The notes under the pieces were generated by a model. It was not told where the DNA came from. It searched no databases and saw nothing but the letters and a program-made list of their open reading frames with translations. From Candidatus Dojkabacteria bacterium (GTDB taxonomy: Bacteria; Patescibacteriota; Dojkabacteria; JAFGLO01), in NCBI GenBank assembly GCA_016927995.1, contig JAFGLO010000015.1:75430-139429 (forward strand): a stretch of 64,000 nucleotides of DNA. Reading direction: 5' to 3'. Within the stretch, counting starts at the first letter, position 1. Each line of letters begins with the position of its first letter. Shown here in pieces: positions 40,964-63,226 of the stretch. Position numbers and translations under genes: made by a program.

Positions 40964-41100
40964 AAATTACTATACCAGTTGTAATCCGTGTGATTAAAGT
41001 CTTGAATCTGTCAATTTGAAAGATTATCGTGGAATCTTTCAGTGGGTAGTACTTTCCGGCGGAGGAGTGATACAGTAAACGATGAAATTTGATATAATAT

Positions 41101-41442
41101 AACATCCTTGGTTTATCGGATGACTGCTTCGATAGGTTTTTCTTATTGAAGAGGAAAGTCCAGACACCATGTGGTCCCGACTTTTCGGGATAGACACTCT
41201 GGAGACAGAGGTAGGTGAAAGCTTACGGAGAAAAGGGCAACAGAAAGTTATACCGCCCCGACTTGTCGGGGTAAGGGTGAAATGGTGGAGTAAGAGCCCA
41301 CCGGTTCCAACAGTAATGTTGGGATGCGTGGTAACCCCTGTCTGGTGCAAGGGCAAAAACGCCCGCATAGATTGATAGTCATACATTCCCGACTTGTCGG
41401 GGAGGACAGAATTTGGCTTATAGGTAGGCCAAGGATGCTTAT
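41101..41442 (+). ncRNA. rnpB: RNase P RNA (bacterial type A)
   Basis: Conserved blocks GAGGAAAGTCC (P4 5' strand), AGGGTGAAATGGTGGAGTAAGAGCCCACC (CR-II) and ACAGAATTTGGCTTA (CR-V). P1 pairing CATCCTTGG (41103-11) with CCAAGGATG (41429-37). The region is visibly GC-rich. Confidence 0.85.
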
Positions 41443-42314
41443 TCCAATACGGTTTTGTTAAACCGTAAATATCCATTGTAAAAGGCTTTTGGCTCGACAG
41501 GTTGTTTCCCTTCGAGTTGAAGTTTACCTGGAGTGTACAAGCCCCGTGTACACGCAATTTGAACAAAGGGGGCCGTTTTTGATAGTAATATTGTTCCCGG
41601 GGTGTAGTCATGACTTATAAAGATCATTTCCCCGGGGTAGATTTTTAATATTTTATTATCAAGTTTCGTCCACGCAATAGGGTTATCAAAATAGGCTTGG
41701 ATAAACCATTTTAGCTTTTCTGCAGGTGTCTTCCAGTCGATGTGAGCTGTGTCAAAATTCACCAGGGTTCTGTCAGCGTATGAGGGTTTTCCCGTCTGTG
41801 CAAAAGGTGTTATAAATTCAAGGTTATTTAACAGATTCGGCAACTTTTCGTGAGCAAGTTTTGCAAGTTTATATTCAAGAGAGTAGGCTGTTTCGGATGG
41901 CACAATTGAGGCTTCAAATTGTTGGAAGATTTCTCCCTCATCCATTCCCTTTACGGTTCGGTGAAACGTAACACCGGTTTTTGTATCTCCCACCAGGATT
42001 GCTCCCACAATTGGATTTGCACCTCTATATTTTGGAAGTAAAGAAGGGTGAATGTTTATAAAGATTGAATCAGGGTTTCCAAAAAACTTTTCCGGAATAT
42101 ATTTTCCATACGAGGCAACAATGTTTATACCCTTGTAGCCTGTAGGTTTATCTGTAACCGGTATTTCTTTGGTTTTACAAAGCTCAATTAATTGAACATA
42201 AGTTGTTTTAATATTGGTAGTTATGAGAGTAGTTATATTAAGATCGCTGTTTTCAAGGAGTCCTTTTAGTATTGTATGTGTTATTCTTGATGTTCCCCAA
42301 AGGGTAATGTTCAT
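41439..42314 (-). CDS. fmt: Methionyl-tRNA formyltransferase
   Basis: Formyl-transferase N-terminal domain (HPSLLPKYRG) plus C-terminal domain. 291 aa. Confidence 0.8.
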   Translation of the reverse strand: MNITLWGTSRITHTILKGLLENSDLNITTLITTNIKTTYVQLIELCKTKEIPVTDKPTGYKGINIVASYGKYIPEKFFGNPDSIFINIHPSLLPKYRGANPIVGAILVGDTKTGVTFHRTVKGMDEGEIFQQFEASIVPSETAYSLEYKLAKLAHEKLPNLLNNLEFITPFAQTGKPSYADRTLVNFDTAHIDWKTPAEKLKWFIQAYFDNPIAWTKLDNKILKIYPGEMIFISHDYTPGTILLSKTAPFVQIACTRGLYTPGKLQLEGKQPVEPKAFYNGYLRFNKTVLE

Positions 42315-59518: not shown

Positions 59519-59606
59519 GGAGAGGTGCCTGAGTGGTCGAAAGGACCGCTTTCGAAAAGCGGCGTCCCGCTTGTCGGGACCGTGGGTTCGAATCCCACCC
59601 TCTCCG
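59519..59606 (+). tRNA. tRNA-Ser (anticodon CGA), class II with long variable arm
   Basis: Acceptor GGAGAGG/CCTCTCC. Anticodon stem CCGCT/AGCGG with loop TTCGAAA. Variable arm CGTCCCGCTTGTCGGGACC. T-arm GTGGG-TTCGAAT-CCCAC. Confidence 0.8.
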
Positions 59607-59716
59607 GGTGGCACCCAAAGGGTGTCAGCCGGAGAGGGATGAAGTAGGAGAGCCCAGTGAAACGGGGGCGGAACGTACCATAAAGAAAATATCAGCACGT
59701 CTTGGCCGAAGGCCAA

Positions 59717-59732
59717 AATCCCACCCTCTCCG
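59717..59732 (+). repeat. Copy of the tRNA-Ser 3' end (AATCCCACCCTCTCCG)
   Basis: Exact 16-nt match to 59591-59606. Confidence 0.8.
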
Positions 59733-59851
59733 AGTGTGTGATTCTTCGCCACGGTATTCTGGTCAAATTCTTCCCGCAAGCCTAGGCTTTCGGGAAAGTT
59801 AGCCCCTTTATAGGTGTGCGGGCTGGGTTCCCTGTCTGCCGACAGGTAGAG

Positions 59852-59867
59852 AATCCCACCCTCTCCG
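59852..59867 (+). repeat. Second copy of the tRNA-Ser 3' end (AATCCCACCCTCTCCG)
   Basis: Exact 16-nt match to 59591-59606. Confidence 0.8.
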
Positions 59868-59983
59868 CAGATGTGCTTTAGTATACAATATTTGACTTAC
59901 CCATATTTGAAAAGGTAATATAGGCCAATATGAAAGAACCTACTATACAAACATAGGTTATACAAAGGGCCAAAAAAAGATTA

Positions 59984-60205
59984 TTGATTGTGGGATTGGT
60001 AATACTTGGCTTGTTTGTAATATATGCAATTATTCCTAAAAGATGCGACGATTATGTGATTTTTACTGGGCATATTACTGGAGGTAGTGATGATTCTGGG
60101 TACATTTTAGTATGTGAATGTATTGGATATAAAATTCAAAGAAAATATGCTCCTACCGATAATTCTGGCACGTGCATTGGGATAATGTATCATAGGAAAG
60201 AATAA
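59984..60205 (+). CDS. Small hypothetical protein with N-terminal transmembrane helix, Cys-containing
   Basis: ORF only. Confidence 0.25.
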   Translation: MIVGLVILGLFVIYAIIPKRCDDYVIFTGHITGGSDDSGYILVCECIGYKIQRKYAPTDNSGTCIGIMYHRKE

Positions 60206-60369
60206 ATGAACGAGGGGCAGGGGAACAAGCTGTGTTGGAAAAGTATTATCCTGATGCCCAAATTACTGCGATTGGCTTGTCTCATGCAGGGTCAGAGTTT
60301 TTAGTGATGTTTGATATTGCCAAATGGATTAAAGAAAATTTTGGGATCGAGGCTACGCCTTTTCCAGAG

Positions 60370-60388
60370 AAAAACTGGTGGAGGTAAT
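60370..60388 (+). repeat. 19-bp direct repeat AAAAACTGGTGGAGGTAAT (copy 1)
   Basis: Exact match to 61909-61927. Confidence 0.75.
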
Positions 60389-60449
60389 ACCATCATCTCA
60401 AAGGTTATTGCTTAATCGGTAATACATTCTAATATAACAAAGCTGATTA

Positions 60450-60611
60450 CTATATTAGAGGGCTTTTGATATTTTCGGTGTCCAGCTGACTTAAGTTCTT
60501 TTTTCTAAAAGTGAAATACTTCTTGAGACCATTCACATAACTTTTTATTGTTCTGGGGCTGTAATCACGAATTTCGAGCTCTCGTATTGTTATATTCAGT
60601 TCTTTTTGCAT
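60450..60611 (-). pseudogene. Tyrosine recombinase (phage-integrase) N-terminal fragment, truncated after 53 codons
   Basis: Hand translation gives MQKELNITIRELEIRDYSPRTIKSYVNGLKKYFTFRKKN.. then a stop. The ..YSPRTIKSY.. pattern is the integrase N-terminal SAM-like domain signature. No downstream frame continues the protein. Confidence 0.5.
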
Positions 60612-60669
60612 AAAAATATGGTTATGATAAAATTAGGACAGTTAATTTAGTGTTATTATAGCAGGGTGG

Positions 60670-60706
60670 ATTCGTATAGTATACGAATTTTCGTATAAAT
60701 TACGAA
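60670..60706. promoter_or_regulatory. Tandem palindromic operator-like site ATTCGTATAgTATACGAAT followed by TTCGTAtaaatTACGAA, 50-90 bp upstream of the DUF1801 gene
   Basis: Two perfect inverted repeats share TTCGTA/TACGAA half-sites. The region is divergent between the integrase remnant and the DUF1801 gene. Confidence 0.45.
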
Positions 60707-60756
60707 AACACTTCGGATAGTAACGAGTTGTACGCAATTCAAAAAAAGAGGTTTAT

Positions 60757-61101
60757 ATGGATGAAAAAATAAAACAATACATTGAAAAACAGAAGCCTAA
60801 AGAAAGACAGCTTATTGAAGAAGCGAGAAAATTAATATATGAAACGATTCCGGAATGTGATGAGTTTTTTCAATGGGGTGTTTTATGTTACTCTAAAGGC
60901 AAAATTTATATTGCTGCAATGAAGGACAGAATCCATGTAGGTTTTTCAATTATTGGTTTATCAAAAGAAGAGGTGAAAATTTTTGAAGGTAGTGGAAAAA
61001 CAGCCAGGCATATAAAAATATTTTCTGTTAATCAATTAGAAGAAAAAAATATTGCAGAATATGTTGAGATGGTTAATAAAAAAGCTGGTATACCTAGTTA
61101 A
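60757..61101 (+). CDS. DUF1801 (YdhG-like) domain protein
   Basis: Size and the conserved DUF1801 core pattern (..IPECDEFFQWGVLCYS.G..IYIAAMKDRIHVGF..). Confidence 0.5.
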   Translation: MDEKIKQYIEKQKPKERQLIEEARKLIYETIPECDEFFQWGVLCYSKGKIYIAAMKDRIHVGFSIIGLSKEEVKIFEGSGKTARHIKIFSVNQLEEKNIAEYVEMVNKKAGIPS

Positions 61102-61132
61102 CTTTTATTACCATTTTTTTTTGAACTGCGTA

Positions 61133-61215
61133 CAACAGCGTGTAGCCGGTTCGGGCGGAGTACCTCTCTCTCCCAAATTGCCTCCGCGAGTACGCTCCGG
61201 CAACTTCGGCTACAC
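61133..61215. repeat. GC-rich structured element: perfect 11-bp inverted repeat GCGTGTAGCCG / CGGCTACACGC enclosing nested GCGGAG/CTCCGC pairing
   Basis: Seen directly. Local GC content is far above the genome background. Confidence 0.5.
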
Positions 61216-61289
61216 GCGGAACGTTATGTGACATTTCGCGCACTGCCAAAAACGAAAAGGTTATAAATTTTGTTTTTTATATAGATACT

Positions 61290-61739
61290 ATGACGAAAAA
61301 AAGACATCAAAATATTCCTGCTTCTTATCTAACATTGTTCAAAGATAACAAAATCTTACTTCTTCGGCGTTGTAATACTGGATATGAAGACGGCAATTAC
61401 TCAATGGTTGCAGGACATGTTGATCCTTGCGAAACTTTTACTCAATGTATTATCAGAGAAGCAAAGGAAGAAGCAGGAATATTACTTAAACCTGAAGATT
61501 TGAAAGTTGTTCATGTAATGCACAGAAACTCTGGTACTGCTGAAAATAATGAAAGAGTTGATGTCTTTTTTATTGCTGAAAAATGGGGTGGTGAGATAGT
61601 AAACAAGGAACCTCACAAGTGCGATGATTTGTATTGGTTTGACTTGGATAGTATCCCAGAAAATGTCATCCCATATATCAAGCAAGCTATTGAAGGAATA
61701 AAAAATAAAATTTATTATAGTGAACATGGATGGCAGTGA
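61290..61739 (+). CDS. NUDIX hydrolase
   Basis: Nudix box GHVDPCETFTQCIIREAKEEAGI (G-x5-E-x7-REuxEExGu). Confidence 0.8.
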   Translation: MTKKRHQNIPASYLTLFKDNKILLLRRCNTGYEDGNYSMVAGHVDPCETFTQCIIREAKEEAGILLKPEDLKVVHVMHRNSGTAENNERVDVFFIAEKWGGEIVNKEPHKCDDLYWFDLDSIPENVIPYIKQAIEGIKNKIYYSEHGWQ

Positions 61740-61908
61740 GCGAAACGCTAAAGCCATGCTGCGCTCTCGTTCCGCTACGCTCCACTCGGGTCACATAACA
61801 CGGGATAAAAGGTTTGGCACTCGGCTCGTGTCTCACCAAAATTTTGCTCCACTCCGTTCCGCAAAACTTTGTATAGTCGCGGCACATTGTGGCGAAATTC
61901 CGTTCATT

Positions 61909-61927
61909 AAAAACTGGTGGAGGTAAT
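61909..61927 (+). repeat. 19-bp direct repeat AAAAACTGGTGGAGGTAAT (copy 2)
   Basis: Exact match to 60370-60388. Confidence 0.75.
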
Positions 61928-62122
61928 CAATGTGTTATAAGTCCATCTTAATGGCTGAGTTATCATACCCATCTTTAGTAGGCAAAACAATTAACGTTTC
62001 TGATCCTCGATATTAGGATATAACTACAGAGGTTCCTGTCTAATTGTGTTTGTATCTTATCGTTACTTTTTACTTTTACGTAATTTCTGCTATTATTTGT
62101 ATATAATTAGCTAACGTAATCC

Positions 62123-62554
62123 ATGATTAAGTCCAACCTAATAGCCCCATGCGGAATGAACTGTGCCTTATGTCTTGGGTATATCCGTGAAAAGAACCGT
62201 TGTGCAGGTTGTAGGGGAGACGAAAAGGGCATGCCAACGTATTGTGGAACCTGTAAAATGAAGGAGTGTGCAAAGGCAAAAGGATTTAAATACTGCTTTG
62301 AGTGTGATAAATATCCCTGTATGCTGGTAAAACATGTAGACAAGCGATACAGAACTCGTTATGGCATGAGCATGATAGAAAACCTAGACTTTATTAAAGC
62401 CCACGGAATTAGGGCATTTGTCAAAAAAGAAAAGGCCAGGTGGACGTGCAAATCCTGTGGAGCCATGCTTTGTGTTCATAGGCCAGTTTGTTTAAACTGT
62501 GGGGCGCAAAGGAATCCGCCGATGCCAGTTCCAACAAAGACAAGATCAAAGTAA
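62123..62554 (+). CDS. Cys-rich DUF3795-like protein
   Basis: N-terminal PCGMNCALCLGY... followed by multiple CxxC pairs (about 16 Cys in 143 aa), the pattern typical of DUF3795. Confidence 0.45.
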   Translation: MIKSNLIAPCGMNCALCLGYIREKNRCAGCRGDEKGMPTYCGTCKMKECAKAKGFKYCFECDKYPCMLVKHVDKRYRTRYGMSMIENLDFIKAHGIRAFVKKEKARWTCKSCGAMLCVHRPVCLNCGAQRNPPMPVPTKTRSK

Positions 62555-62590: not shown

Positions 62591-62624
62591 ATCGGTTCGC
62601 GTATAATCTATTAAGATAAGTTTT
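62591..62624 (+). repeat. 34-bp direct repeat ATCGGTTCGCGTATAATCTATTAAGATAAGTTTT (copy 1; contains TATAAT)
   Basis: Exact match to 63193-63226. Confidence 0.8.
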
Positions 62625-63192: not shown

Positions 63193-63226
63193 ATCGGTTC
63201 GCGTATAATCTATTAAGATAAGTTTT
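63193..63226 (+). repeat. 34-bp direct repeat (copy 2)
   Basis: Exact match to 62591-62624. Confidence 0.8.

What the first reader, a model, noticed from the sequence alone, without database searches (positions are those of the whole stretch)
61121..61905. GC-rich, inverted-repeat-rich structured elements flank the NUDIX gene in an otherwise AT-rich genome
Upstream of the NUDIX gene (61133-61215) is a perfect 11-bp long-range stem, GCGTGTAGCCG...CGGCTACACGC, enclosing nested GCGGAG/CTCCGC and CGGAG/CTCCG pairings. It ends about 75 nt before the NUDIX start. Downstream of NUDIX (61740-61905) is a second GC-rich block with its own hairpins (GAGCG..CGCTC) and a 10-nt segment (GTCACATAAC) inversely repeated relative to the upstream block (GTTATGTGAC).

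In an AT-rich, CPR-like genome, GC-rich patches are usually structured RNAs. Candidates are a cis-regulatory RNA or riboswitch for the NUDIX gene, terminal inverted repeats of a small non-autonomous mobile element carrying the NUDIX gene, or remnants of the att and tRNA sequences. An R-rich ORF (61720-61926) annotated across the downstream block is probably a translation artefact of this GC-rich sequence.
Basis: seen in the sequence. Interest (0 to 1): 0.5.

Follow-up and report, generated by a model that had tools for sequence, protein, structure and literature searches.

The report
Gene-cassette recombination sites flanking NUDIX
The two GC-rich blocks are hairpin recombination sites bounding mobile single-gene cassettes in a decayed integron-like array of a Dojkabacteria (CPR) genome. 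Relatives of this array sit beside a short Xer-like recombinase that lacks the domain defining classical integron integrases, and the same cassette occurs in MAGs assigned to DPANN archaea.

Summary
The blocks are real but are not a riboswitch. A covariance model built from related sites finds exactly two hits in the 64-kb window, both on the + strand. They are attC1 at 61130-61229 (block 1) and a degenerate attC2 at 61793-61892 (inside block 2).

Block 1 closes the upstream DUF1801 cassette (60728-61223). The NUDIX cassette runs from 61224 to 61886. Its homology to copies in MAGs labelled Saccharibacteria, Pacearchaeota and Patescibacteria starts exactly at 61224, right after G|TT, the canonical integron crossover point.

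Upstream lie a conserved attI-like site and a divergent 53-codon remnant of a tyrosine recombinase, so the array here is a fossil. In related loci the same site family forms same-strand arrays next to this recombinase. The site's stem shows strong covariation.

Full-length recombinases are about 272 aa and Xer-like ('XerA_Arch'). They lack the IntI-specific additional domain, so this is integron-like rather than a canonical integron.

Two further features are unusual. Each cassette's 5' end carries 10-25 nt that pair with its own 3' end. An optional conserved module of about 45 nt, which makes up the first half of block 2, lies 5' of the site.

I rate it a new variant of a known kind. All evidence is computational.

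The parts
60450..60611 (-). Remnant (53 codons) of the cassette-array tyrosine recombinase, transcribed away from the cassettes. The rest of the gene is absent from the window.
   Evidence: Pfam Phage_int_SAM_4 27.8 bits, gathering score 27. It is 45% identical to the N-terminus of the L002 recombinase. tblastn with full-length relatives finds only residues 1-54 in the window.
60612..60727 (+). attI-like primary site. Direct repeats TTCGTATAGTATACGAA (60671-87) and TTCGTATAAATTACGAA (60690-706), a proximal arm TTCGGATAG (60712-20), then AACGAG|TT with the crossover between 60727 and 60728.
   Evidence: The same architecture (a distal TTCGYATAA, a proximal TTCGYATA, then GAG|TT) lies between the recombinase start and the first cassette in L002, L082, L085, L086, L120, L134 and L136. 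The repeats are family D20.
60728..61223 (+). Cassette 1. It holds the DUF1801 gene (60757-61101) and its own recombination site. The 5' end 60727-60757 is complementary to 61106-61136.
   Evidence: Pfam DUF1801 2.2e-9. Inverted repeat I1 is 31 nt and 84% complementary. The own-end stem spans 31 positions with 26 matching.
R'' GTACAAC 61130-36; L'' GCGTGTAGCCGG 61138-49; variable loop with CCCAAATT; L' TCGGCTACACGC 61206-17; spacer GGAAC; R' G|TTATGT 61223-29.
   Evidence: Model R1 scores 71.4 bits, but this site was one of the seeds. DNA fold z = -3.7 on the bottom strand. Close relatives are L038:42-128 and L067:786-863.
61224..61886 (+). Cassette 2. It holds a conserved leader (61224-61289), the NUDIX gene (61290-61739), the extension arm, the module and attC2.
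   Evidence: blastn alignments to L002, L003 and L006 all start at cassette position 1 (= 61224) and run 527-625 nt at 83-87% identity. Pfam NUDIX 2.7e-17.
61233..61248 (+). 5' arm of the cassette-specific extended stem (CATTTCGCGCACTGCCA region). It pairs with 61731-61745.
   Evidence: I24. The arm is conserved in L002, L003, L006, L010 and L011, with TTTCTC/GAGAAA in L006 against TTTCGC/GCGAAA here.
61731..61745 (+). 3' arm of the extended stem (TGGCAGTGAGCGAAA). It overlaps the NUDIX stop codon.
61746..61789 (+). Optional conserved GC- and pyrimidine-rich 'module' (CGCTAAAGCCATGCTGCGCTCTCGTTCCGCTACGCTCCACTCGG). Function unknown.
   Evidence: The motif YTGCRCT lies 26-63 nt (13 of 14 within 26-44 nt) 5' of R'' in 14 of 30 sites, against 0.018 expected per 90 nt. 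The aligned modules give no consensus structure. Sequences are shown.
61793..61892 (+). attC2, a decayed site that forms the second half of block 2. R'' ACATAAC 61793-99; L box with several broken pairs; R' ATTGTGG 61886-92, where the crossover G has become A.
   Evidence: Model R1 scores 35.6 bits, E = 1.5e-6, and this site was not a seed. The fold is not better than shuffles.
61887..61930 (+). Leader of a third cassette (TTGTGGCGAAATTCC..., with GGAGGT 7 nt before the ATG at 61931). No closing site follows.
   Evidence: It matches the cassette-start consensus TTRnRCGAAATT. The window holds no third R1 hit at E<=10.
60370..60388 (+). Left copy of the perfect 19-bp direct repeat AAAAACTGGTGGAGGTAAT. 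The right copy is at 61909-61927. Together they bracket the whole remnant array. Meaning unresolved.
   Evidence: Family D10. A scan of public metagenomes returned only unrelated coding matches.

Best explanation
The GC-rich blocks are attC-type recombination sites of an integron-like gene-cassette array.

Order on the + strand: a divergent recombinase remnant, the attI-like site, the DUF1801 cassette closed by attC1 (block 1), the NUDIX cassette closed by a module plus attC2 (block 2), and the leader of a third cassette.

Shown:
- Each cassette starts at the TT of G|TT.
- Each cassette ends with its own site, an imperfect palindrome. The palindrome has an R box (xxxxAAC...GTTxxxx) and a 12-bp L box (consensus nnGnATATGCGG/TCGnATATnCnn) around a variable loop.
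- As duplex DNA, the L'-spacer-R' half reads AAC(A/T)TCGYATAT-n9-TTAnnCGAAATT. These are two inverted copies of one about 12-nt arm, like a dif-type core site, with the crossover at the right-arm boundary.

Inferred mechanism: a roughly 272-aa Xer-like tyrosine recombinase, encoded beside intact arrays, binds the arms. It exchanges one strand at AA|C of the bottom strand on a site that forms when single-stranded cassette DNA folds back on itself. This is how integron IntI acts on attC and how XerCD acts on the CTX-phage attP hairpin. The result is excision of cassettes as circles and their insertion at the attI-like site.

In this genome the system is dead. The recombinase is cut to 53 codons. 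attC2 has lost several L-box pairs and the crossover G. The NUDIX gene is therefore probably fixed.

The blocks are GC-rich because the site family and its module keep their sequence across hosts, not because they encode an RNA.
For: - Site detection: model R1 finds exactly two hits in 64 kb, both on the + strand and each directly 3' of a small gene.
- Arrays in relatives: in 80 NUDIX loci there are 25 hits, all on the gene strand. They form arrays in MAGs labelled Saccharibacteria, Berkelbacteria, Magasanikbacteria, Buchananbacteria and Patescibacteria, with single hits in Moraniibacteriota, Pacearchaeota and Woesearchaeota loci.
- Covariation: 8 of 12 L-box pairs carry double changes. The covariation score is 0.379 against at most 0.096 when partners are slid. 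A MAFFT-only alignment gives 7 of 12.
- R box: AAC/GTT is nearly invariant. The outer R-box bases pair poorly within arrays, as expected when they come from the next cassette.
- Crossover: cassette homology to three other genomes starts at 61224, just after G|TT.
- Mobility: NUDIX has more than 1,700 homologs, up to 95% identical, and its relatives occur in CPR, DPANN and other phyla.
- Recombinase linkage: a divergent recombinase, an attI-like site, cassettes and R1 hits in the right orientation occur together in the window, L002, L086, L120-127, L134 and L136/137. In other loci the contig ends 60-350 nt upstream of the recombinase gene.
- Shared motif: the attI repeats and the attC L' arm share TTCGYATA.
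- Strand: the bottom strand folds better in 24 of 30 sites.
Against: - No experiment, read-level evidence of excision or circular junction was available.
- The window keeps only a 53-aa recombinase remnant and one well-formed site.
- The recombinase family lacks the IntI domain thought necessary for recognising attC hairpins. Hairpin use is therefore inferred from covariation, not from a known protein feature.
- No conserved extrahelical base is evident in the L box.
- The duplex L'-R' half could in principle recombine without folding.
- Model R1 was built by me from 10 seeds chosen with an attC-like rule, so its hits lean towards that rule.
- Taxon labels come from metagenome bins.
- DUF1801 homologs in three other loci show no such site.
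Confidence: 0.85

Rival explanations
1. The array is a canonical integron fragment (a CALIN). The sites are ordinary attCs served by a classical IntI, with the additional domain, encoded elsewhere or lost. The neighbouring Xer-like gene is unrelated to the cassettes.
For: The R''/L''/L'/R' layout, the G|TT crossover and the site length of 100 nt all fit classical attC. Most archaeal arrays reported by Ghaly et al. 2022 are CALINs, and IntI1 recombined 8 of 9 tested archaeal attCs (PMC9668308). By sequence the recombinase scores about as well against the IntI model as against XerA.
Against: The Xer-like gene sits in the IntI position, divergent and followed by a conserved attI-like site ending in GAG|TT, in at least six independent loci. 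The repeats in that site share the motif of the attC L' arm.
Confidence: 0.12
2. The recombinase is the host's chromosome-dimer resolvase (the 'Cand'/XerA-type Xer) next to its dif site. The cassettes are small elements that exploit Xer and pile up at dif (IMEX-like), rather than parts of a dedicated integron.
For: Relatives reach the NCBIfam XerA_Arch cut-off (233, 221 and 240 bits against 220). The site has inverted arms like dif. CTX-phage uses a folded single-stranded attP with XerCD (my own knowledge). Smyshlyaev et al. 2021 treat the 'Cand' subgroup as Xer substitutes (PMC8138268).
Against: The copies next to arrays are very often truncated or frameshifted: the window, L002, L082, L086 and L120. 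That is unexpected for an essential resolvase. The cassettes are single genes in arrays of up to about 11, unlike known IMEX. GC skew does not change sign across the window, so it shows no replication terminus or origin.
Confidence: 0.2
3. The blocks are structured RNA: a riboswitch or leader controlling NUDIX, or 3' stabiliser/terminator hairpins.
For: Block 1 is a stable hairpin 73 nt upstream of NUDIX. The cassette's 5' leader pairs with its 3' end, which could also matter in mRNA.
Against: Rfam gives no hit even at E<=1, and no terminator-like site was found. The hairpin is not conserved upstream of NUDIX elsewhere but recurs downstream of unrelated genes. Wobble counts show no sense-strand bias, 33 GT against 34 AC.
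Confidence: 0.03
4. The inverted repeats are the ends of a non-autonomous transposon (MITE-like) that carries NUDIX.
For: NUDIX is flanked by inverted 10 + 15 nt repeats, and the gene is widely transferred.
Against: There is no target-site duplication at 61223/61224 or after 61799. The repeats are cassette-specific, while the hairpin between cassettes is the shared element. The units sit in same-strand arrays next to a tyrosine recombinase, not a transposase.
Confidence: 0.03

Closest known systems
Integrons (IntI / attI / attC gene cassettes), including CALIN arrays and the archaeal integrons of Ghaly et al. 2022
   Same: - A divergent tyrosine recombinase gene, a primary site beside it, and same-strand arrays of small genes.
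- Each gene is followed by an imperfect-palindrome site with conserved AAC...GTT.
- The L box is kept by covariation rather than by sequence, and the crossover is at G|TT.
- The cassette's first bases pair with its own R''.
- The sites are about 100 nt long, and cassettes are shared across phyla and domains.
   Different: - The recombinase is about 272 aa and lacks the IntI-specific additional domain. The TIGR02249 profile is skipped over roughly positions 180-250, and about 28 residues of VchIntIA (around 214-241) have no counterpart.
- No conserved extrahelical bases are evident.
- The stem continues 10-25 nt beyond the R box with cassette-specific sequence.
- An optional conserved module of about 45 nt precedes R''.
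- The loop carries a conserved CCCAWATT motif.
Xer/dif recombination and elements that exploit it (IMEX; CTX-phage folded single-stranded attP)
   Same: - A simple Xer-type recombinase, with relatives passing the XerA_Arch cut-off.
- A core site made of two inverted arms.
- Integrated units flanked by directly repeated sites.
- An inverted second half-site that could fold single-stranded DNA into a recombination substrate without any IntI domain.
   Different: - The units are single promoter-poor genes in arrays, not phages or islands.
- The central region is about 9 nt.
- The recombinase copies are often pseudogenes.
- There is no evidence that the site lies at the replication terminus.
pdif modules of Acinetobacter plasmids
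   Same: Small gene modules bounded by Xer-type sites.
   Different: pdif modules are flanked by complete sites in inverted orientation that share their sequence. Here the complete sites are direct repeats, and each carries an internal inverted half.
'Cand' subgroup of simple tyrosine recombinases (Smyshlyaev et al. 2021, PMC8138268)
   Same: Xer-related short recombinases from candidate phyla. This is probably the same protein group, but I did not test that assignment.
   Different: That paper describes them as presumptive Xer substitutes. I found no link to cassette arrays in it.

Membership tests
Integron (canonical) | Integrase is a tyrosine recombinase carrying the IntI-specific additional domain around patch III | tested here: not met
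   The window holds only a 53-aa N-terminal remnant. Full-length relatives of 270-279 aa match TIGR02249 in two stretches at 190-229 bits, below the 265 cut-off. They match XerA_Arch at 204-240 bits against a cut-off of 220. PDB entry 2A3V aligns in two pieces, leaving about 28 IntI residues unmatched.
Integron (canonical) | attC sites: imperfect inverted repeats R''-L''...L'-R' with conserved AAC/GTT and structure kept by compensatory change | tested here: met
   Two hits in the window. AAC/GTT are paired in 21-25 of 25 sequences, and 8 of 12 L-box pairs carry double changes.
Integron (canonical) | Crossover between G and TT of R', so that a cassette begins with TTRRRY and ends with its own attC | tested here: met
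   Homology of the NUDIX cassette to L002, L003 and L006 begins at 61224, the first T.
Integron (canonical) | Extrahelical bases in the folded bottom strand that set strand choice | tested here: inconclusive
   The 12-bp L helix is ungapped in most sites, with 89% of cells paired. The only consistent asymmetry is the 1-nt against 4-5-nt spacer between the R and L boxes.
Integron (canonical) | attI site next to the integrase gene, divergent from it, receiving the first cassette | tested here: met
   A conserved attI-like region ending in GAG|TT is present in eight loci, including the window.
Integron (canonical) | Pc promoter reading into the array | tested here: inconclusive
   One promoter-like match lies at 60605-60633 (+), but such matches are not more frequent than in shuffles.
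CALIN (cluster of attC sites lacking an integrase) | At least two attC sites less than 4 kb apart, detected with the standard attC model, with no IntI nearby | not testable with these tools
   Two sites 564 nt apart were found with my own model R1. The IntegronFinder/HattCI models were not available.
Xer/dif with exploiting elements (IMEX) | Xer-family recombinase acting at a core site of two inverted arms around a short central region | tested here: inconclusive
   The arms AACaTCGcATAT and rc(TTAtgCGAAATT) = AATTTCGcATAA are inverted copies, but the central region is about 9 nt. XerA_Arch scores are at or near the cut-off.
Xer/dif with exploiting elements (IMEX) | Site at the replication terminus; recombinase needed for dimer resolution | not testable with these tools
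   Only 64 kb is available. GC skew does not change sign across the window. Frequent pseudogenes argue against essentiality.
Riboswitch / cis-regulatory RNA | Match to a curated RNA family, or a structure conserved together with the regulated gene | tested here: not met
   Rfam gives nothing at gathering score or at E<=1. The hairpin is not conserved upstream of NUDIX in other loci.
MITE / non-autonomous transposon | Terminal inverted repeats plus a target-site duplication, with copies at unrelated sites | tested here: not met
   There is no duplication at the cassette ends. The units occur only in same-strand arrays.
pdif module | Gene flanked by two complete Xer sites in inverted orientation | tested here: not met
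   The complete L'-R' sites flanking each cassette are in direct orientation.

The most novel reading that the evidence does not exclude
CPR bacteria and DPANN archaea may share a so far undescribed integron-like system. In it, a short Xer/XerA-type recombinase without the IntI additional domain would mobilise single-gene cassettes through long hairpin sites. Those sites have an R box, an L box, a cassette-specific outer stem and an optional conserved module.

Such a system could be a sister or ancestral state of integrons, or a convergent solution related to the CTX-phage trick. It would also be a route for gene exchange between episymbiotic bacteria and archaea, since the same NUDIX cassette (83-87% nucleotide identity) is found in MAGs of both groups.
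Probability: 0.4. Interest if true: 0.8.

Novelty: new variant of a known kind. Interest (0 to 1): 0.6.

Why it matters
For this window the result is a clean re-annotation. The 'structured GC-rich elements' are DNA recombination sites, NUDIX and DUF1801 are captured cassettes, and the locus is a dead array in an island between tRNA-Ser and dnaN.

The wider interest lies in the enzyme. Integron biology holds that the IntI additional domain is what lets a tyrosine recombinase use folded attC hairpins. Here an attC-like family with strong stem covariation is consistently paired with a recombinase that lacks that domain.

If the enzyme is active, three questions become testable:
- how hairpin-site recombination can work without the domain;
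- where integrons came from;
- how very small symbiotic bacteria and archaea trade genes.

The cassette-specific outer stems also bear on the unsolved question of how cassettes are made.

Tried and rejected
- Rfam over the whole window at gathering score, and over 60400-62200 at E<=1: nothing beyond RNase P RNA and two tRNAs.
- Terminator scan of the region: none found.
- Exact look-up of the NUDIX protein: not on record.
- The DUF1801 look-up gave only an identical 1.3-kb contig, which ends inside attC1.
- Scan of public metagenomes for the 19-bp direct repeat, hoping for an empty site: 33 hits, all unrelated coding sequence.
- Looking for the rest of the recombinase in the window: absent.
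- Loci of DUF1801 homologs (83% and 77% identical): no site of this family, so they say nothing about attC1.
- Strand choice from G-T against A-C mismatch counts: no bias once one terminal pair is left out.
- Consensus fold of the 45-nt module: none.
- My first attC rule required at least 5 R-box pairs and missed attC1. I relaxed it before choosing seeds.
- The idea that block 2 ends at GTTCATT (61902) was dropped. The model places R' at 61886-92, where the sequence matches the cassette-start consensus.
- Literature searches for integrons in CPR, Patescibacteria or Saccharibacteria found no description of such arrays. The library holds open-access papers only.
Full report
**Observation**

The window averages 38.3% G+C. 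Two patches either side of the NUDIX gene (61290-61739) reach 58-64% and 53-59%.

The nested pairings are also there. As single-stranded DNA, block 1 folds clearly better than shuffled sequence, with z about -3.7 to -4.0 on the bottom strand.

The 10-nt inverse match GTTATGTGAC/GTCACATAAC is present. It continues into a second 15-nt arm, 61234-48 against 61731-45. Block 2 as a whole does not fold better than chance. Rfam reports nothing there, even at E<=1.

**Anatomy of the locus**

- Immediately left of the two genes, on the minus strand, is a 53-codon ORF (60450-60611). It passes the Pfam gathering score for the N-terminal SAM-like domain of phage integrases. The rest of that gene is gone.
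- Between it and the DUF1801 gene lies a stretch with two TTCGTATA direct repeats. It ends in AACGAG|TTGTACGCAATTC.
- The DUF1801 gene (60757-61101) is bracketed by a 31-nt inverted repeat, 60727-57 against 61106-36, just as NUDIX is bracketed by its own.
- This pattern is what integron gene cassettes show: each gene's first bases pair with the sequence just before a hairpin, and the hairpin ends in GTT. I tested that idea.

**The NUDIX gene is a mobile unit**

NUDIX has over 1,700 homologs, many 75-95% identical, mostly on short contigs. In one-genome-per-species data its relatives occur in MAGs labelled Saccharibacteria, Magasanikbacteria, Berkelbacteria, Cloacimonadota, Alphaproteobacteria, Pacearchaeota, Woesearchaeota and others.

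Nucleotide alignments of the presumed cassette (61224-61886) to L002 (Saccharibacteria), L003 (Pacearchaeota) and L006 (Patescibacteria) all begin at its first base, the T after G|TT. They run 527-625 nt at 83-87% identity.

The block-1 hairpin to the left is not shared with those loci. Block 1 therefore belongs to the preceding DUF1801 cassette, not to NUDIX.

**The site family**

L002 shows the full layout. A divergent recombinase gene is followed by five genes, each followed by a related element.

I chose ten such elements with a simple rule and aligned them with MAFFT. They share xxxTAAC-A-nnGnATATGCGGTTC...CCCAWATTT...AAACWTCGnATATnCnn-(G/A)AAC-GTTAnnC.

I built a covariance model, R1, with a 7-bp R box and a 12-bp L box. 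Its results were:

- In the window it finds two hits, both on the + strand. attC1 at 61130-61229 scores 71.4 bits and was a seed. attC2 at 61793-61892 scores 35.6 bits (E = 1.5e-6) and was not a seed. In attC2 several L-box pairs are broken and the crossover G is replaced by A.
- In the 80 NUDIX loci it finds 25 hits, all on the gene strand. They form arrays in CPR MAGs, with single hits in two DPANN loci.
- The L box carries compensatory double changes in 8 of 12 pairs. The covariation score is 0.379 against at most 0.096 for slid partners. The MAFFT-only alignment gives 7 of 12.
- AAC/GTT are almost invariant. The outer R-box bases pair poorly within arrays, which is expected if they belong to the next cassette.
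- The bottom strand folds better in 24 of 30 sites, by 1.9 kcal/mol on average.

**The recombinase**

A profile of the window remnant plus the L002 fragment retrieves 281 proteins, named (where named) from Roizmanbacteria, Shapirobacteria, Kuenenbacteria, Jacksonbacteria, Peribacteria and others. The 120 listed are all 79-236 aa, cut by contig ends or frameshifts.

Intact C-terminal halves and full-length representatives of 270-279 aa do exist. They score as follows:

- XerA_Arch: 204-233 bits for the four representatives and 240 bits for a reconstructed L085 protein, against a cut-off of 220.
- Integron-integrase model TIGR02249: 190-229 bits, against a cut-off of 265, always in two stretches that skip roughly profile positions 180-250.
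- Solved structures: the best hit is Vibrio IntI (2A3V) in two pieces, leaving about 28 residues of the additional domain unmatched. Pyrococcus XerA (4A8E) follows in one piece.

The enzyme is thus a short Xer-like recombinase with sequence affinity to IntI but without the feature that defines IntI.

**Linkage of enzyme and arrays**

Wherever at least 1 kb upstream of the gene is available, divergent small genes carry R1 hits in the right orientation. This holds for the window, L002, L086, L120-127, L134 (eleven small genes) and L136/137. L006 keeps a 29-aa remnant directly upstream of its NUDIX cassette. Elsewhere the contig stops 60-350 nt upstream of the gene, as expected at a variable array.

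The inter-region is conserved in eight loci. It has a distal TTCGYATAAyATAC, a proximal TTCGYATA, and then GAG|TT.

The junction consensus is AAAC(A/T)TCG(C/T)ATAT-nCnnnAACG|TTAnnCGAAATT. The reverse complement of the right arm (AATTTCGcATAA) is the same motif as the left arm (AACaTCGcATAT). As duplex DNA, each junction is therefore a dif-like site with inverted arms. The crossover sits at the right-arm boundary, where a tyrosine recombinase would cut the bottom strand.

**Unusual features**

1. Cassette starts share GTTRnRCGMAATT and then carry 10-25 nt that are complementary to the cassette's own 3' end just 5' of R''. Own pairs exceed the 95th percentile of non-own pairs in 12 of 20 cassettes (Mann-Whitney p = 2e-6). 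In the NUDIX cassette the 3' arm overlaps the stop codon. L006 shows TTTCTC/GAGAAA where the window has TTTCGC/GCGAAA.
2. In 14 of 30 sites a conserved GC- and pyrimidine-rich module lies at the point where that outer stem meets the R box. It carries the motif YTGCRCT 26-63 nt before R'' (13 of 14 within 26-44 nt), against 0.018 expected. It has no consensus fold.
3. The loop carries CC[CA]AWAWT in 22 of 30 sites.

I cannot assign functions to these three features.

**Mechanism**

The sites, their boundaries, their covariation and their linkage to the recombinase are shown. The mechanism is inferred.

I propose that the recombinase excises cassettes as circles and inserts them at the attI-like site by a single-strand exchange at AA|C on a folded site. 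This is how IntI uses attC. From my own knowledge, it is also how XerCD uses the folded attP of CTX-phage, which proves that a Xer enzyme can use such a substrate without an IntI domain.

The covariation of L'' with L' argues that folding matters, since a duplex-only pathway would not need the inverted half.

In this genome the array is a fossil.

**Comparison with the literature**

Integrons are known in Archaea, including the DPANN phyla Nanoarchaeota and Aenigmatarchaeota. Most of those arrays lack an integrase, and the few archaeal IntIs do carry the additional domain (PMC9668308). Smyshlyaev et al. list a 'Cand' group of Xer-related recombinases from candidate phyla as presumptive Xer substitutes (PMC8138268).

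I found no paper linking such an enzyme to cassette arrays or describing integrons in CPR. The library is incomplete, so this is weak evidence of novelty.

**Verdict**

The riboswitch reading is rejected, and the 'mobile element carrying NUDIX' reading is close to the truth.

The blocks are attC-type sites of a decayed integron-like array (confidence 0.85). Whether the system is a distinct, active, Xer-driven relative of integrons is open; I give that about 0.4.

Two things remain unexplained: the 19-bp direct repeat bracketing the array (60370-88 and 61909-27), and the role of the module and the outer stems.

Noticed in passing
window 59519-59867: tRNA-Ser(cga) at 59519-59606 is followed by two extra copies of its 3' end (AATCCCACCCTCTCCG at 59717 and 59852). 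Each copy is preceded by a short GC-rich hairpin. They look like stacked attachment-site remnants of elements that integrated into this tRNA. The whole stretch from 59.6 to 63.8 kb, up to dnaN, is an island of small or broken genes.
   Followed up: partly
window 60370-60388 and 61909-61927: A perfect 19-bp direct repeat AAAAACTGGTGGAGGTAAT brackets the recombinase remnant, the attI-like site, two cassettes and the leader of a third. Both copies end an ORF with ...KNWWR*. The right copy supplies GGAGGT 7 nt before an ATG. Its origin is unknown (att core, duplication or secondary-site event), and a metagenome scan was uninformative.
   Followed up: partly
window 62591-62624 and 63193-63226: A perfect 34-bp direct repeat (ATCGGTTCGCGTATAATCTATTAAGATAAGTTTT, containing TATAAT) precedes two small ORFs whose C-termini are related (..AVTFYDR and ..IVTFYNRW). 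This looks like a local duplication of a small membrane-protein gene together with its promoter region.
   Followed up: no
L085:301-1115; proteins P0125, P0138, P0160, P0204, P0198, P0165: The Xer-like recombinase genes next to arrays are very often broken at runs of A (around codons 37 and 210) or truncated. None of the 120 best N-terminal matches is full length, although 270-279-aa versions exist. Possible causes are decay, assembly error or slippage-based switching.
   Followed up: partly
L011:1361-1400, L011:820-860, L038:2908-2940: Some 'cassettes' seem to have no gene. The start GTTGGGCAAAATCGCTCGCTCCGCTCGCAATTTTGCCCAAC folds straight back on itself, so that the R box plus outer stem has only a tiny loop.
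   Followed up: no
L001 (Logan SRR13394437), matching window 59838-61161: An independent assembly is identical to the window over 1.3 kb and stops inside the attC1 hairpin. This would fit a repeat or a variable junction in that sample.
   Followed up: no
L120-L127 (Kuenenbacteria-type loci): Eight assemblies of one population share the recombinase and a first MFS-transporter cassette. They differ in the number and size of the small ORFs beyond it (for example 56/63/73/43 aa against 56/101 aa), hinting at cassette-content variation between samples.
   Followed up: no
window 41108-41436: A bacterial class A RNase P RNA scores 155 bits. It overlaps two mechanically listed minus-strand ORFs (41039-41611 and 41439-42314). 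The first of these lies almost entirely over the RNA gene and is probably spurious.
   Followed up: no
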